Shown here: one piece after another, positions 1,806 through 62,909 of the stretch
Layout: each line of letters starts with the position of its first letter
Position numbering within the stretch: position 1 is the first letter of the stretch
Virus genome (UHGV): UHGV-0240317
Strand: one strand, 5' to 3'
DNA from: a virus
Length of the DNA: 64,000 nt
Program-made: the position numbers and the translations under genes
Notes under the pieces: model-generated
Database searches by the model: none
What the model saw: the letters and a program-made list of their open reading frames with translations, nothing else
What the model was told of the DNA's origin: nothing

Positions 1806-2126
1806 TTACTGAGCTACTTTCAAGATGCTTGTGAATGAAATCTCACTCTCATCCATAAACTCTTTTGCTTCCCCAGTAACTTTTACAAAGTTATCTAGGC
1901 AGATAATCTTCTTATCTTTCTTGCTGTAGGTTAGCTTAACCTTTTCAATATCTTTCTTAGAGCTTTTCTCTTCATTAAAGAGCTTCACAGCTTCTTTGAA
2001 TGGAAGGTATGAGCCATCATCATCGCTAATAAAACCTGTACCACAATAGTAGAAGTTATACTCTTTAGCCATAAACTTGCACAGTACGAAAATCTGTAAT
2101 TTACGAGTGTTATAAACTTTGCTCAT
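1806..2126 (-). CDS. hypothetical protein
   Basis: 106-aa ORF in compact minus-strand gene array. Confidence 0.45.
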   Translation of the reverse strand: MSKVYNTRKLQIFVLCKFMAKEYNFYYCGTGFISDDDGSYLPFKEAVKLFNEEKSSKKDIEKVKLTYSKKDKKIICLDNFVKVTGEAKEFMDESEISFTSILKVAQ

Positions 2127-27966: not shown

Positions 27967-28179
27967 ATGGCTCTTAAAAAGTTACATCCCAGAAGCGGTT
28001 ATGGTAAGATAATTGATGATACAGACGGCTTTACAGTCTTTACAGTTATCTGTCAAGATGATTCACAGATTGAAAAGGCTCTTGATGATTATCTTAATGA
28101 TGAACGTGAAAAGGTTAGGGCTACAAACATAGATTCATTGATTGACACTTCACGCAAACGGAAGAAGAAAGATGAATGA
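27967..28179 (+). CDS. hypothetical protein
   Basis: 70-aa ORF. Confidence 0.4.
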   Translation: MALKKLHPRSGYGKIIDDTDGFTVFTVICQDDSQIEKALDDYLNDEREKVRATNIDSLIDTSRKRKKKDE

Positions 28180-58171: not shown

Positions 58172-58624
58172 TTAAATCAAATGTCTTGAGAATTGACTGT
58201 GGCAATTTGGACACAAGAACCGAAGATTCTCTTTTCTATCATCTAACCAGTTCTCGTTAATGTGGTCAACATCAAGAGTTAGAGGATTACCCAACCAATC
58301 AGGTAACTGACCACATTTAGAGCACTTGTATTCGACACCAGAGGCTATTAAAGCTCTTCTTAGTTGTGAAGACCTCGCTCTTTCACCAGATTCACGTAGA
58401 ATTAGGATTTCTTCAGGCTTTCTTTTTGGTACAGTTTTAATCTTACCAGCCTTTTGTCCGAGAAAATGAGAAGTGTCTATTTCAAACTTTTCTATAACAC
58501 GCTTTAGATGTGACTGAGAACCACCTGCTGGTTTTCTCCCAAGCTTAATAAGTACTTCTCTGAATGATACTGAATCCTTTACTAAAGGTTCAAGAATATC
58601 TTTAGTCAAACTGCTGCGTGCCAT
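58172..58624 (-). CDS. HNH endonuclease (free-standing, inside tRNA cluster)
   Basis: 150 aa; C-terminal HNH/zinc motif CSKCGQ...LDVDHINENW...NLRFLCPNCH. Confidence 0.7.
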   Translation of the reverse strand: MARSSLTKDILEPLVKDSVSFREVLIKLGRKPAGGSQSHLKRVIEKFEIDTSHFLGQKAGKIKTVPKRKPEEILILRESGERARSSQLRRALIASGVEYKCSKCGQLPDWLGNPLTLDVDHINENWLDDRKENLRFLCPNCHSQFSRHLI

Positions 58625-58894
58625 GTGTCAATCTCCCATTAAATCTTTTTAGAGAACTTCTAAGAACCTAAGCAACAAGGTTCCACAACAAGCTGTAATA
58701 ACCTTAGAAGCCCTCTAAAAAGACCTAAAAAGGTCTTTGCATAGTCTTGTTTAATCCGGTGACTAGAACCTTTGGAGAGCTTGATATTATCTCTTCTCCG
58801 TGACACCTACTAGGTGCTTTATCAGTGCGTACAACAATACACGCGGTATACCAAAGCAACATCCGAATGAAGCTTGGCTTTAAATCTTATTAGG

Positions 58895-58982: not shown

Positions 58983-58995
58983 CCTAATAAGACTT

Positions 58996-59078
58996 TGGCA
59001 TGGGACGGAGGATTTGAACCCCTTTGAAACGGTTTTGGAGGCCGTTGCTCATGCCTTAGAGTCTTAACATCGTCCCAT
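58996..59078 (-). tRNA. tRNA-Trp-like (anticodon CCA) with enlarged D-loop
   Basis: Perfect acceptor ATGGGAC/GTCCCAT, T-arm GGGGTTCAAATCCTCC, anticodon loop CTCCAAA on a 4-bp stem; 83 nt. Confidence 0.45.
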
Positions 59079-59297: not shown

Positions 59298-59544
59298 ATT
59301 AATCTTTAAAGACTCTCTGAGAAAGCCCTTAAAGATGCCCACCTTATTAATCATACCGTGGGCTAGTACGCCAAATTCTTCGATGAGGGATTGGAAGACC
59401 TCACTGGTGTTTAGCCTATCAAGCTACTGCCAGAAAAACATTGTCGTTTGCATTTATTTTAAATTTGCAAAATAGACGCTACGCAACGAAAACTAAGGTT
59501 ACTATAAAGTAGTCACATCTCAATGTCAACAACTTTATTGAAAG

Positions 59545-59619
59545 TGGTTGTAGGTGAGGGTATCGAACCCTCTTCTAACGGTTATCAGCCGTTTGCATTA
59601 CCATTTATGCTAACCCACA
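59545..59619 (-). tRNA. tRNA-Ile (anticodon GAT)
   Basis: Anticodon stem-loop AACGG-CTGATAA-CCGTT; T-arm GAGGGTTCGATACCCTC; CCA. Confidence 0.7.
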
Positions 59620-59702: not shown

Positions 59703-59778
59703 TGGTAGAAGTGGAGGGATTCGAACCCATCGCCTGTCAGATTAAAAGTCTGCCGCATCACCATTCTGCTACACTTCC
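59703..59778 (-). tRNA. tRNA-Lys (anticodon TTT)
   Basis: Anticodon loop CTTTTAA; T-loop TTCGAAT; CCA. Confidence 0.6.
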
Positions 59779-59927
59779 ATTAAATTATCTTTGTAGATAA
59801 GCTACCCAGACTTGCTTAAGGTCTGTAGCGATGTGTATTGTTGGGTTTAAATCTAGAATTTACCCTTTCACCCTTTGTGGTCGCATACTCACAGGTAAGC
59901 TTAATAACTTATCTACAAAGATAATTA

Positions 59928-60060
59928 CCAGACCGTTGTTTAACATCTTAAGTGCTACCATTACACCAACTCGACATCTGCCGAGTGAAGGAATCGAACC
60001 TTCTCCTTTTCTTTACCGGAGAAATAGATTGTTTAAAGTTTGCTGTAAACGGTCTTCTGT
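59928..60060 (-). ncRNA. structured RNA element (repeat-family member 3) containing a tRNA-like module without anticodon arm
   Basis: Closing stem ACAGAAGACCGTT/AACGGTCTGG; interior has canonical T-arm GAAGGTTCGATTCCTTC, 7-bp acceptor-like hairpin ACTCGGC-agat-GTCGAGT and D-arm-like GTGT-AATGGTA-GCAC. Confidence 0.35.
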
Positions 60061-60072
60061 AAATTTGTTGAG

Positions 60073-60151
60073 CCAGACCAAGTTTTAAAATTTTTTCAAA
60101 ATTAAATTGGCTTGAAAATATCATACGTACTTGCTGTAATTGGTCTTCTGC
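60073..60151 (-). ncRNA. structured RNA element (repeat-family member 4)
   Basis: Plus-strand CCAGACC...TTGCTGTAATTGGTCTTCTGC; same terminal boxes as members 1-3. Confidence 0.3.
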
Positions 60152-60211
60152 TCCTTTAAAGAATACTCGTAAGAACTCTTTAAGGGAGGGGCTAAATAGC
60201 CCTCTCAAAAT

Positions 60212-60468: not shown

Positions 60469-60479
60469 TTAATACATTG

Positions 60480-60541
60480 CCAGACCGTGTTTTTTCTTTT
60501 ATCCGCAAAAAGTATTTTGTTGCTGTAAACGGTCTTCTGTA
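60480..60541 (-). ncRNA. structured RNA element (repeat-family member 1)
   Basis: Plus-strand CCAGACCG...TTGCTGTAAACGGTCTTCTGT; on minus strand directly follows tRNA 3' end. Confidence 0.3.
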
Positions 60542-60545
60542 AATT

Positions 60546-60621: not shown

Positions 60622-60633
60622 AATTCTTAATGA

Positions 60634-60707
60634 CCAGACCAAATCTCTTCTTTGTCCGATTTACCTTCAGATGAATAAGATTAAGTTTGCTGTAATTGGT
60701 CTTCTGT
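60634..60707 (-). ncRNA. structured RNA element (repeat-family member 2)
   Basis: Plus-strand CCAGACC...TTTGCTGTAATTGGTCTTCTGT. Confidence 0.3.
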
Positions 60708-60713
60708 CAAAAC

Positions 60714-60875: not shown

Positions 60876-61040
60876 ATAAACTTTTCAAACTCTATGTAAC
60901 CACTTTAACATTATTTTTTAGTGGTTGTCAAGAACTTTTTTAAAATATTTTTCAGTATCTTAGAAAAGCTCTCATTTCGTTTCTATGTAGAACATATTAA
61001 AGGGTATTAAACGCATTGTCAATACCCTTTTTAAAACTTT

Positions 61041-62456
61041 TTACCAGATGTAACGGTCAATCATTACTGCTCTGAGCATTACGCTGGTTGGGTCAAACTT
61101 CTCACCACCAAGCAGAGCTTTTAAAGTGGCTGGAGAGAACCCTGATACTATTGCTACACCATTATCCTTAACAGACACTTCGCAAGTACCACTACGGTTT
61201 GCTAAGTACCAGAATACCAGTTGTGGCATTTCGTATCCAGCTTTTTTGTACTTACTACGAATTACTTCAAAGTTTGTACGACCATTTGCACCGTCAACCT
61301 GATTAAACTCCATATCAGAGAAGATGATAAGCTTACTTGGCATATCTTTCTGAGTCAAGTTGTTTCTCTTACCTGTCTCAAGGATGCGGTCAAAAGCTGC
61401 TTGTAAGTTAGTTGAACCGTATTCAACGTGTCGCATCACCTGACGATGACGGTTTAGTAAATCACCACTCAGTTCGATGAAGTGAGGGTTTGTTGAATAG
61501 ACCATTAACTCATTTTTAAAGCAACCTGTATTGCGTTCTGCTACATACAAGGCAAGTGATACACCAATATCAAGAGCAGTAATGGAGCCAAATTTAACCC
61601 AAGACATTGAGTTTGAAACATCAGACATACATAGAATGTTTTCACCCTCTGCCATCCAGTTTGGTAGTGCTTTCCACTGCTCATTAGCAACATCTGCATT
61701 GCCATACTTAACAGATTTAATCACATCGTATGGGTAAACAGCACCAGCATTAATCTTAGTCTCACCCTTTGATAAGGACTCAATGTAAGCTTTGTAGCGT
61801 TCTCCATCTTTACGGTTAAACAGTTTTTGGTAACGTGCAGCAGCAAGTGAAGGAATCTTACTGTAGTCAATCTTGCCGAACTCATTAGCAGAGATTTTTT
61901 GCTCAACTGTATCAGATAGTGCAGACAAAAGTGTGCGGTACTCTTTCTCACTCAAGTTGGCAAACTTGCAGAAACGTTTTACAAACTGCTTATGACGTGG
62001 TTTGACTCGTGGTAACCACTTAGCTACCAAACCTGCTGTTGCAGGGTCTAGTAATGCTGCTTCTAAATGTTTGAAGGCATCTGTCTCGAAACGAGTACCT
62101 ACGAAGATTTTGAAGTCATCAAAACGACCAAGTTCTGCAATCTTATCCATAATGCGAAGAACCTGTGTAGGCTCTAAAACTTTATCTTCACTTGCTTGAA
62201 GCAAAACAGTTCTGAAGGCTTTACGCTCACCCATACCTTCTCGTACATCTCGCATATGAAGCAAAATACGAACTGCAACATCAACATCCTCACGCAAAGC
62301 TTTGTAGAACAAGTCTGGTAAGATTTCTACATTACTACGGCTTGAACCAGCAGCTTTGTAAAAGTCTACAAGAGCAGACATTGATGAAGTATGGTTTACA
62401 GCACCATTTTCAGTTCGACCTGCATGAAGGTGCGCATGTTTAAATAATTCGCTCAT
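61041..62456 (-). CDS. vWA-domain protein with MIDAS motif; candidate Ro60/TROVE-like or DUF2828-type RNA-associated protein
   Basis: 471 aa; helical N-terminal region then ILCMSDVSNSMSW (DxSxS) ... LIIFSDMEFNQ pattern that I recall from Ro60 vWA domains; ATG 62456. Confidence 0.45.
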   Translation of the reverse strand: MSELFKHAHLHAGRTENGAVNHTSSMSALVDFYKAAGSSRSNVEILPDLFYKALREDVDVAVRILLHMRDVREGMGERKAFRTVLLQASEDKVLEPTQVLRIMDKIAELGRFDDFKIFVGTRFETDAFKHLEAALLDPATAGLVAKWLPRVKPRHKQFVKRFCKFANLSEKEYRTLLSALSDTVEQKISANEFGKIDYSKIPSLAAARYQKLFNRKDGERYKAYIESLSKGETKINAGAVYPYDVIKSVKYGNADVANEQWKALPNWMAEGENILCMSDVSNSMSWVKFGSITALDIGVSLALYVAERNTGCFKNELMVYSTNPHFIELSGDLLNRHRQVMRHVEYGSTNLQAAFDRILETGKRNNLTQKDMPSKLIIFSDMEFNQVDGANGRTNFEVIRSKYKKAGYEMPQLVFWYLANRSGTCEVSVKDNGVAIVSGFSPATLKALLGGEKFDPTSVMLRAVMIDRYIW

Positions 62457-62537: not shown

Positions 62538-62909
62538 CTATTTTTTGAGAGTCGCTACAGCAGAGAACGTTGGTTTGTTATCTGTCTGGGGTTGACCACC
62601 ATTATCAGGAGCCTTCTTAGTGTCTGCTGCAATCGCTTTCATCTCACCTGCTGAGTGAGTCATGATAGTTTTACCGACCTCAATCATACTCTTGATGGTT
62701 ACATCGTCTGTGTTTAACCCGAACTCTGCAAGCTTAGCAGCATCCCTTGTAACAATCGCTTCAAATAACTTTGCAGCAAACTCAGCAGAATTATCAATGG
62801 TCAGTTGAGCTTTTACGAGTGAGCTTTTGTTACGAGAGCCTTTTGGTCTTCCGGATGGGTTTCCAGACTGGCCTTTTTTAAACTGGCCTTTGTTTGTTCT
62901 ATTTTTCAT
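62538..62909 (-). CDS. hypothetical protein with N-terminal KGQSGNPSGRPKG basic motif
   Basis: 123-aa ORF. Confidence 0.45.
   Translation of the reverse strand: MKNRTNKGQFKKGQSGNPSGRPKGSRNKSSLVKAQLTIDNSAEFAAKLFEAIVTRDAAKLAEFGLNTDDVTIKSMIEVGKTIMTHSAGEMKAIAADTKKAPDNGGQPQTDNKPTFSAVATLKK

What the first reader, a model, noticed from the sequence alone, without database searches (positions are those of the whole stretch)
59783..59926. Pair of identical 16-bp palindromes (TTATCT-N4-AGATAA) in inverted orientation 124 bp apart within the tRNA cluster
59783-59801 (AATTATCTTTGTAGATAAG) is the exact reverse complement of 59908-59926. Each is itself a perfect palindrome, which is typical of operators for dimeric DNA-binding proteins or of hairpins at RNA processing sites. 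Together they flank a roughly 100-bp segment next to the tRNA-like element.
Basis: seen in the sequence. Interest (0 to 1): 0.4.

Follow-up and report, generated by a model that had tools for sequence, protein, structure and literature searches.

The report
Closing stem of a phage RNA
The two "palindromes" are the two strands of one 19-base-pair stem that closes an unannotated, conserved ~145-nt structured RNA inside a Felix O1-like phage's tRNA operon, just downstream of a Ro60-like gene; they are not protein operators on DNA.

Summary
59783-59801 is the exact reverse complement of 59908-59926, the longest perfect inverted repeat in the window (simulations reach 11-14 nt). Each arm is a 6+6 dyad around a non-palindromic 4-nt centre, so it is not a "perfect palindrome".

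The window is a Felixounavirus and all 26 tRNAs lie on the minus strand. Relatives carry five diverged versions of the element. All keep an 18-26 bp long-range helix. In the three alignable types, 7 of 19 pairs show compensatory changes and 97% of cells are paired. Only the window's type keeps the local dyad.

The arms therefore form the terminal helix (P1) of a ~144-nt minus-strand RNA, "RNA-X". It has three internal hairpins and always ends 0-11 nt before tRNA-Lys(UUU). No Rfam family matches it.

RNA-X sits 1.1 kb downstream of a gene whose predicted fold is full-length Ro60. Four Y-RNA-like modules lie beside it, one a YrlA-like tRNA mimic. The same RNA architecture accompanies this gene family in many unrelated phages.

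Best reading: a stable, processed small RNA. It may be a further partner of the Ro60-like protein, and its stem may also be an RNase III target; both are inferred. The operator reading is not supported.

The parts
59783..59926 (-). RNA-X: a ~144-nt structured non-coding RNA made of P1 plus three internal hairpins.
   Evidence: Minus-strand fold is -45.6 kcal/mol, z = -5.9. Covariance model R1 scores 163 bits here. Homologues occupy the same position in relatives.
59908..59926 (-). 5' strand of terminal helix P1 (RNA: AAUUAUCUUUGUAGAUAAG).
   Evidence: Exact complement of 59783-59801. Duplex energy -22.5 kcal/mol. Pair counts.
59783..59801 (-). 3' strand of terminal helix P1 (RNA: CUUAUCUACAAAGAUAAUU). 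It ends 4 nt before tRNA-Lys.
59876..59893 (-). P2 hairpin: UGUG / CACA stem with conserved loop AGUAUGCGAC.
   Evidence: The stem becomes GGGG/CCCC in type C while the loop AGUAUGCG is kept. Read from the alignments; not counted formally.
59843..59865 (-). P3 hairpin around the conserved AUUCUAGAUU.
   Evidence: The four inner P3 pairs are 98-100% paired; one shows a change on both sides once type C is added, with UCUAGA (types A, B) becoming ACUAGU in type C.
59807..59825 (-). P4 hairpin: CAGAC-CUUAAGCAA-GUCUG.
   Evidence: The stem covaries: CAAACC/GGUUUG in B, CAGUC/GACUG in C, AAGUC/GACUU in D, UGUUC/GAACG in E. The loop C(C)UU(U/A)AGCAA is kept in all five types.
59703..59778 (-). tRNA-Lys(UUU), immediately 3' of RNA-X. 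RNase P cleavage at its 5' end would create the RNA-X 3' end (inferred).
   Evidence: ARAGORN. The same adjacency is seen in L115, L116, L117, L118, L119 and L120.
59923..60064 (-). Neighbouring module 1: a YrlA-like tRNA mimic. It has a bulged closing helix, the UUUACAGCAA motif, a V hairpin, a T arm, a closed acceptor-like stem and a D arm.
   Evidence: RNAalifold predicts 31 pairs, 14 with compensatory changes. Model R2 scores 149 bits.
60068..60155 (-). Module 2 (CAGAAGACC ... GGUCUGG family).
   Evidence: (D6).
60475..60544 (-). Module 3.
60629..60711 (-). Module 4.
61041..62456 (-). Ro60-like protein gene (Pfam DUF2828 + DUF7788, 471 aa), directly upstream of the tRNA/RNA array.
   Evidence: Pfam. 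AlphaFold2 pLDDT 87, pTM 0.88. The top 10 Foldseek PDB hits are all Ro60/Rsr/TROVE, E 2e-8 to 4e-7, full length.
60902..61022 (-). Two sigma-70-like promoter matches between the Ro60-like gene and tRNA-Pro. They are candidate start points for the array transcript.
   Evidence: These are consensus matches only and are not enriched over shuffles.

Best explanation
Shown: the two arms pair with each other, not each with itself. Together they form the 19-bp terminal helix (P1) of a ~144-nt RNA, RNA-X, read from the minus strand like all 26 tRNAs. P1 closes a junction carrying three conserved hairpins (P2, P3, P4).

Inferred biogenesis: RNA-X is co-transcribed with the tRNA array from promoters just downstream of a Ro60-like gene. 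Its 3' end is made by RNase P cutting at tRNA-Lys(UUU), 4 nt away. The long helix gives the excised RNA protected, paired ends. It may also be cut by RNase III.

Inferred function, less certain (about 0.3): RNA-X is a further RNA partner of the phage Ro60-like protein. This rests on its neighbours. Four Y-RNA-like modules lie beside it, one a YrlA-like tRNA mimic, and the same module architecture accompanies this protein family in many unrelated phages.

The 6+6 dyad inside each arm is a peculiarity of one sequence type, not the conserved feature.
For: Statistics: the repeat is the longest perfect inverted repeat in the window, 19 nt against 11-14 in simulations.

Conservation of pairing:
- In a structure-blind MAFFT alignment of 18 distinct sequences, P1 is 97.6% paired and 3 pairs changed on both sides. 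Slid controls give 26-47% for the whole three-helix structure.
- With type C added (25 sequences, aligned to the model), 7 of 19 P1 pairs changed on both sides, 4 changed by wobble only, and 97.2% of cells are paired.
- Types D (Yersinia phage P778, L117) and E (L119) have unrelated stem sequences, yet form terminal duplexes of about 23 and 26 bp (-28 and -33 kcal/mol) at the same place.

Strand: 16 G-U cells in P1 on the minus-strand reading, from about 6 events. About 2 events favour the plus strand. All tRNAs are on the minus strand.

Interior: P4 covaries with a conserved loop in all five types. The P2 stem compensates between A and C. One inner P3 pair changes on both sides in type C.

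Position: RNA-X is always 0-11 nt 5' of tRNA-Lys(UUU).

Context:
- The upstream gene has a full-length Ro60 fold.
- In Bas63 the equivalent gp130 is Ro60-like and counters the ppl defence. Those authors guessed that Y RNAs hide among the tRNAs (PMC11482910).
- Model R2 of module 1 gives 68 of 68 hits on the Ro60-like gene's strand. Full-length hits lie beside that gene in at least 13 unrelated loci.
Against: - There are no expression or end-mapping data. RNA-X ends, RNase P and RNase III involvement are all inferred.
- Covariation rests on few independent lineages: A, B and C in the counts, D and E by eye.
- The link to the Ro60-like protein is by neighbourhood only.
- P1 has no bulged helix and no GNCGAA/CGAA motif, the marks of a Y-RNA Ro60 site.
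- The C that is invariant in the modules' UUNCAGCA motif is A or U in the P4 loop of every RNA-X type.
- Model R1 and a P4 descriptor find RNA-X only in Felix O1-like relatives, not in about 75 distant loci that encode the protein.
- The type-A dyad (about 1 in 4000 by chance for a given arm) remains unexplained.
Confidence: 0.8

Rival explanations
1. P1 is only an RNase III processing stem that separates parts of the polycistronic tRNA precursor, in the way the stems flanking rRNAs do. The enclosed ~106 nt would have no function of its own.
For: P1 is a 19-22 bp, AU-rich, nearly perfect duplex. In type A the duplex is two-fold pseudo-symmetric, which would suit a homodimeric dsRNA enzyme. Other long stems lie just 5' of tRNAs in this array and in relatives: 58639-58728; L115 9907-9994; L117 7647-7838; L119 7844-8023. 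From memory, not checked here: T4 species I RNA from the tRNA region is cut by RNase III.
Against: The interior is not neutral. The P4 loop is conserved across five lineages with a covarying stem, and the P2 loop and P3 core are conserved. RNase III cutting and a functional RNA are not mutually exclusive.
Confidence: 0.12
2. The two sites are DNA operators, TTATCT-N4-AGATAA, bound by a dimeric phage DNA-binding protein.
For: Each arm has 6+6 dyad symmetry. There are three exact copies in the window against 0.02 expected.
Against: Two of the three copies are the arms of one repeat. The third (1891) and the best one-mismatch site (28046) lie inside ORFs. With up to 2 mismatches there are 12 sites against 6.8 expected. 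The dyad is absent from types B-E while the long-range pairing is kept. G-U wobbles are tolerated, which matters for RNA and not for DNA. The site is inside a tRNA operon with no adjacent promoter match.
Confidence: 0.03
3. Each arm folds on its own into a small RNA hairpin that marks a processing site.
For: The type-A arms can form 6-bp hairpins (-3.4 and -3.0 kcal/mol). Such hairpins could form briefly during transcription.
Against: The long-range duplex is -22.5 kcal/mol and the whole RNA is -45.6. Arms of types B and C have no local fold. Substitutions preserve inter-arm pairing, not intra-arm pairing.
Confidence: 0.03
4. The inverted repeats are the termini of a small mobile or recombining DNA cassette, like a MITE.
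For: Salmonella phage SPJ41, a Felixounavirus, carries a type-B RNA-X between flanks that are about 97% type-A-like. So the cassette has been exchanged, with breakpoints in the conserved outer part of the arms.
Against: There is one copy per genome, always at the same place next to tRNA-Lys(UUU), with no target-site duplication and no other copies. Change is compensatory on the RNA strand. Exchange by homologous recombination between related phages explains the swap.
Confidence: 0.02

Closest known systems
T4 RNAC and RNAD (species 1 and 2 RNAs) from the T4 tRNA region
   Same: Small stable RNAs of about 120-140 nt (sizes from memory), encoded among phage tRNA genes on the same strand and released by processing. 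Their function is unknown (PMC3014915).
   Different: No sequence relation was detected: the blastn hits to RNA-X listed from 50,697 phage records were Felix O1-like phages. As far as I know T4 has no Ro60-like gene. T4 sequences were not folded or compared here.
Bacterial and phage Y RNAs (YrlA, YrlB, Yrn1; phiLo Yrl1/2) that bind Ro60
   Same: About 100-150 nt, with the 5' and 3' ends paired in a long stem that closes a structured interior. Encoded on the same strand within a few kb of a Ro60-type gene (PMC4201824, PMC12135203).
   Different: The RNA-X stem has no bulge and no GNCGAAN0-1G or CGAA motif, and RNA-X has no tRNA-like domain. The neighbouring modules fit this family much better than RNA-X does. 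The protein is Ro60-like by fold only (Pfam DUF2828/DUF7788, not TROVE).
RNase III processing stems, such as those flanking rRNAs or in T7 early RNA
   Same: A duplex of about two helical turns formed by sequences that flank a released RNA.
   Different: Here the enclosed RNA has its own conserved hairpins. Cleavage is untested.

Membership tests
Y RNA (Ro60 partner RNA) | Encoded near a Ro60 orthologue, on the same strand (within about 4 kb in Chen et al. 2014). | tested here: met
   RNA-X starts 1.1 kb downstream of 61041-62456 on the same strand. The protein is a Ro60 homologue by predicted fold, not by Pfam TROVE.
Y RNA (Ro60 partner RNA) | The 5' and 3' ends pair into a long stem that closes a large structured loop. 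| tested here: met
   P1 is 18-26 bp in five sequence types.
Y RNA (Ro60 partner RNA) | A Ro60-binding motif (GGUCCGA, GNCGAAN0-1G or CGAA) in a bulged helix or bulge near the 5' end. | tested here: not met
   P1 is an unbulged duplex without the motif. GCCGAAG occurs only in the P2 loop of some type-B copies and is not conserved.
Y RNA (Ro60 partner RNA) | Physical binding to the Ro60 protein. | not testable with these tools
   Needs RIP/CLIP or EMSA.
YrlA (tRNA-mimic Y RNA) | V, T, acceptor-like and D stem-loops in that order. | tested here: not met
   There is no tRNA-like match in RNA-X by Rfam at E up to 10 or by model R2. The adjacent module 1 (59923-60064) does meet this feature.
Any Rfam 15 family | A covariance-model match. 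| tested here: not met
   No hit on 59783-59926 at E up to 1 in 10 kb, or at E up to 10 in 446 nt.
Operator for a dimeric DNA-binding protein | Dyad symmetry conserved in relatives. | tested here: not met
   The dyad is present only in type A.
Operator for a dimeric DNA-binding protein | Recurs at promoters or regulatory regions. | tested here: not met
   The other sites lie inside ORFs and there is no enrichment. The element lies within a tRNA operon.
RNase III substrate | About 20 bp of largely uninterrupted dsRNA. | tested here: met
   19-22 bp in the window.
RNase III substrate | Cleavage by RNase III. | not testable with these tools
   Needs an in vitro assay or an rnc mutant.
Phage tRNA-operon small stable RNAs (T4 RNAC/RNAD type) | Encoded between tRNA genes, on the same strand, with no ORF. 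| tested here: met
   It lies between module 1 and tRNA-Lys, and the only ORFs are short, unconserved database calls.
Phage tRNA-operon small stable RNAs (T4 RNAC/RNAD type) | Accumulates as a discrete stable RNA. | not testable with these tools
   Needs a Northern blot or RNA-seq.

The most novel reading that the evidence does not exclude
RNA-X is a previously undescribed class of partner RNA for a divergent, phage-wide branch of the Ro60 family (DUF2828/DUF7788). Together with the four Y-like modules it would build a multi-RNA ribonucleoprotein that underlies the anti-defence activity reported for Bas63 gp130. Its strict linkage to tRNA-Lys(UUU), a classic target of anticodon nucleases, could reflect a role in protecting, repairing or decoying for that tRNA.
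Probability: 0.25. Interest if true: 0.8.

Novelty: new variant of a known kind. Interest (0 to 1): 0.6.

Why it matters
A 2024 preprint showed that the Ro60-like protein of a Felix O1-like phage counters a bacterial defence system. Its authors guessed that Y RNAs hide among the phage's "tRNA genes", but named none.

This region supplies concrete candidates:
- four bulged-stem modules, one of them a tRNA mimic;
- RNA-X, a fifth conserved structured RNA.

Exact coordinates and compensatory-mutation designs are now available. That makes the idea directly testable by RIP, EMSA and deletion. It also suggests that Ro60/Y-RNA-type particles are far more common in phages than TROVE-based searches indicate.

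For genome annotation, these conserved RNAs are currently either left blank or mis-called as tiny hypothetical proteins or pseudo-tRNAs.

Tried and rejected
- Operator family: searched TTATCTN4AGATAA with 0-2 mismatches. No enrichment; the extra sites are inside ORFs.
- Known RNA family: Rfam at E up to 1 and up to 10 gave nothing for RNA-X. Rfam at gathering threshold on 11 related loci gave only tRNAs.
- Host mimicry: blastn of RNA-X against 5,426 E. coli genomes gave no match.
- Distant homologues: model R1 on about 75 unrelated loci encoding the Ro60-like protein gave no credible hit. A descriptor search for the P4 hairpin in those loci found only unrelated 7-nt loops.
- Small peptide: only an unconserved 8-codon ORF. 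The database CDS calls over it in LMP34 look spurious.
- Sequence-level Ro60 membership of the protein: Pfam gives DUF2828/DUF7788, not TROVE. phmmer against PDB gave nothing relevant. PADLOC gave no hit.
- Literature: DUF2828, Felixounavirus ncRNA and phage Ro60 anti-defence searches found no description of these RNAs. Burroughs and Aravind 2016 and the Sim 2020 review are not held.
- A possible pairing between the P2 loop and the junction 5' of P4 (GCGA/UCGC in A, GCGG/CCGC in C) was seen by eye only and is not claimed.

Full report
**Observation.** The region was read directly. 59783-59801 (AATTATCTTTGTAGATAAG) is the exact reverse complement of 59908-59926, with 106 nt between the arms. 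The repeat finder extends the arms to 22 nt at 95%. This is the longest perfect inverted repeat with a loop of 400 nt or less in the whole window. Thirty first-order Markov simulations gave maxima of 11-14 nt. Each arm has TTATCT and AGATAA around a centre (TTGT or ACAA) that is not self-complementary, so "perfect palindrome" overstates it. The pattern TTATCTN4AGATAA has three exact copies against 0.02 expected, but two of them are the arms of this one repeat.

**Setting.** The window is a Felix O1-like phage (Felixounavirus), 96-98% identical to many E. coli and Salmonella phages. All 26 tRNA genes lie on the minus strand between 55260 and 60875. The element fills most of the space between a tRNA-like module and tRNA-Lys(UUU) at 59703-59778, and its lower arm ends 4 nt before that tRNA. 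Sigma-70-like promoter matches on the minus strand lie just upstream of the array at 61022-60994 and 60931-60902, and none lies next to the repeat (consensus matches only).

**Related sequences decide between the readings.**
- Blast, a pattern scan of IMG/VR and contig look-ups gave 25 distinct versions.
- They fall into three alignable types. Type A is the window and most Felixounaviruses. Type B is Sf19, SUSP2, Mordin, SPJ41 and others. Type C is two metagenomic phages whose Ro60-like protein is about 63% identical.
- In a MAFFT alignment made without reference to structure, the 19 inter-arm pairs are 97.6% paired and 3 pairs changed on both sides. Sliding the partner by 1-3 columns drops pairing across the whole three-helix structure to 26-47%.
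- With type C added (alignment fitted to model R1, so it leans slightly towards the structure), 7 of 19 pairs changed on both sides. Four more changed only through G-U wobble, and 97.2% of cells are paired.
- Two still more distant phages carry unrelated stem sequences at the same position: Yersinia phage P778 (L117) and a metagenomic contig (L119). Their terminal duplexes are about 23 and 26 bp long (-28 and -33 kcal/mol). They share the P4 hairpin described below.
- The local dyad inside each arm is not kept. Type-A arms fold to -3.4 and -3.0 kcal/mol; arms of types B and C do not fold at all.
- So the long-range helix is the selected feature, not the two small palindromes.

**RNA, and which strand.** On the minus-strand reading, P1 holds 16 G-U cells from roughly six separate changes. 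About two changes would favour the plus strand. Conserved G-U pairs also occur in P3. Tolerance of G-U fits RNA and argues against a DNA site. The minus strand is the strand of every tRNA. Both strands fold well, as expected for an inverted repeat, so folding energy does not discriminate.

**Anatomy of RNA-X (59926 to 59783, minus strand).**
- P1 is the 19-bp terminal helix.
- P2 (59876-59893) has a UGUG/CACA stem that becomes GGGG/CCCC in type C, with the loop AGUAUGCG kept.
- P3 (59843-59865) is centred on AUUCUAGAUU. The UCUAGA core becomes ACUAGU in type C.
- P4 (59807-59825) is CAGAC-CUUAAGCAA-GUCUG. Its stem covaries in all five types while the loop C(C)UU(U/A)AGCAA stays.
- No Rfam family matches, even at E up to 10 in a 446-nt search. 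No E. coli genome holds anything similar.
- In every lineage RNA-X ends 0-11 nt before tRNA-Lys(UUU), although the surrounding tRNA order differs.

**Neighbourhood.**
- The ORF just upstream of the array (61041-62456, 471 aa) is Pfam DUF2828 + DUF7788 and is annotated "vWFA protein".
- Its AlphaFold2 model (pLDDT 87, pTM 0.88) matches Ro60/Rsr/TROVE structures over its full length. These are the ten best Foldseek hits: E 2e-8 to 4e-7, TM 0.38-0.64 (0.52-0.64 for nine of the ten).
- This agrees with a preprint on the Felixounavirus Bas63. There gp130 is called Ro60-like, counters the ppl defence system, and is suspected of using unidentified Y RNAs among the tRNA genes (PMC11482910).
- Between the tRNAs I found four copies of a module, NNNNC-AGA-AGACCR-NWWNCAGCAA ... 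YGGUCU-G-GNNNN. Its outer helix covaries.
- Module 1 (59923-60064) has the YrlA order V, T arm, closed acceptor-like stem, D arm. RNAalifold predicts 31 pairs, 14 of them with compensatory changes. YrlA features are taken from PMC4201824.
- A covariance model of module 1 (R2) gave 68 hits at E up to 1 in 80 sources, all on the strand of the Ro60-like gene.
- Full-length R2 matches lie next to that gene in at least 13 unrelated IMG/VR phage loci, for example L035 at 1e-13, L085 at 3e-12, L063 as a tandem pair 16 nt after the stop codon, and L017 10 nt before the start codon.
- These matches share UUNCAGCA, the T arm, the closed 7-bp stem and the D arm.
- About half of 44 distant loci scanned have tRNA clusters on the same strand as the gene, mostly directly downstream, and a few have tmRNA.
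- The modules are therefore strong candidates for Y RNAs of this Ro60 branch.

**How RNA-X most likely works.**
- Shown: a conserved terminal helix and conserved internal hairpins on the tRNA strand.
- Inferred biogenesis: co-transcription with the array, a 3' end made by RNase P at tRNA-Lys, and a helix that gives the excised RNA stable paired ends.
- RNase III might cut the ~20-bp duplex. In type A the duplex is two-fold pseudo-symmetric, which would suit a homodimeric dsRNA enzyme, but that symmetry is not conserved.
- A role as a further partner of the Ro60-like protein is suggested by position and by the terminal-stem design.
- The P4 motif also resembles the module motif: AGACC-UUAAGCAA against AGACCG-UUUACAGCAA.
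- A similar stem (GUCUUUUUAGAG in the window; GGUCUUUGUAGAUGGC in L115) occurs in a second long hairpin just 5' of tRNA-Leu(UAG) in relatives. This hints at sequence-specific recognition.
- Against the Ro60 link: P1 has no bulge and no GNCGAA/CGAA motif. The C that is invariant in UUNCAGCA is A or U in every P4 loop. RNA-X is absent from distant phages that have the protein and the modules.
- I put the structured-RNA core at about 0.8-0.9 and the Ro60-partner role at about 0.3.

**Comparison and novelty.**
- The nearest described things are the T4 RNAC/RNAD small RNAs of the tRNA region, whose function is unknown (PMC3014915), and Y RNAs.
- RNA-X meets the location and terminal-stem features of Y RNAs but fails the binding-motif feature, so I do not file it as a Y RNA.
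- It is an unannotated, conserved structured RNA: a new variant of the small RNAs embedded in a phage tRNA operon, sitting in an apparently undescribed Ro60-like/Y-like RNA array.
The RNA-hairpin idea is right in kind but wrong in geometry.

Noticed in passing
window 61041-62456 (-): The 471-aa DUF2828/DUF7788 protein, annotated 'vWFA protein', has a full-length Ro60 fold by AlphaFold2 plus Foldseek. It sits directly upstream of the tRNA array. More than 2,600 homologues were found in phages. About half of 44 distant loci scanned have tRNA clusters on the same strand as the gene, mostly directly downstream, and a few have tmRNA.
   Followed up: yes
window 59923-60064, 60068-60155, 60475-60544, 60629-60711 (-): Four copies of a bulged-stem RNA module (CAGAAGACC...UUACAGCAA...GGUCUGG) lie between tRNAs. 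The first is a YrlA-like tRNA mimic. A model of it finds the same architecture beside DUF2828 genes in at least 13 unrelated IMG/VR phage loci, always on the gene's strand. These are probable Y RNAs of a divergent Ro60 branch.
   Followed up: yes
window 58639-58728 (-), within a conserved non-coding stretch about 58633-58892: A second long hairpin (26-nt arms, 85% complementary) has a stem, GUCUUUUUAGAG, that resembles the RNA-X stem. In relatives (L115 9907-9994, L116) it abuts tRNA-Leu(UAG) and ends in the same UUUAAU tail. Rfam's MIR473 hit here is a hairpin artefact.
   Followed up: partly
window 58172-58624 (-): A 150-aa HNH endonuclease ORF (Pfam HNH, 1e-4) is inserted between that hairpin and tRNA-Leu(UAG). 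It is absent at this spot in L115 and L116, so it is probably a homing-endonuclease insertion in the tRNA array.
   Followed up: partly
L004 (Salmonella phage SPJ41) 565-715, against window 59779-59930: A Felixounavirus carries the type-B version of RNA-X between type-A-like flanks. The identity break-points lie in the conserved outer part of the stem. This indicates cassette exchange by recombination.
   Followed up: partly
window about 58995-59075 (-): A tRNA-like sequence with a T arm and a paired acceptor, similar to tRNA-Arg (repeat D9), is called neither by ARAGORN nor by Rfam. Some relatives annotate pseudo-tRNAs ('tRNA-OTHER') in this array.
   Followed up: no
window 60152-60205 (-): Two adjacent hairpins lie just 3' of tRNA-Asp: CUCCCUUAAAGAGU...AUUCUUUAAAGGAG and GAGGGCUAUUUAGCCCCUC. 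They are conserved in relatives and their role is unknown.
   Followed up: no
window 1891-1906: The third exact TTATCTN4AGATAA (TTATCTAGGCAGATAA) lies inside ORF 1806-2126 (-). The best one-mismatch site, 28046-28061, lies inside ORF 27967-28179. Neither looks regulatory.
   Followed up: partly
window 62538-62909 (-): A DUF5681 gene with a basic N-terminus lies just upstream of the Ro60-like gene. The order DUF5681, Ro60-like gene, then tRNA array is kept in L115-L120, with the terminase large subunit following in the four loci that reach that far (L115, L116, L118, L120). Function unknown.
   Followed up: no
window 59298-59602 (-): There are weak, sub-threshold Rfam matches to tmRNA and permuted tmRNA in the 247-nt spacer between tRNA-Arg and tRNA-Ile. 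That spacer also holds the best promoter-like match of the region (59529-59501, 11 of 12).
   Followed up: no
L117 7647-7838; L119 7844-8023: In more distant relatives, other RNAs with 23-27-bp terminal stems enclosing about 135 nt lie just 5' of tRNA-Pro. A long-stemmed RNA placed before a tRNA seems to be a recurring design in these arrays.
   Followed up: no
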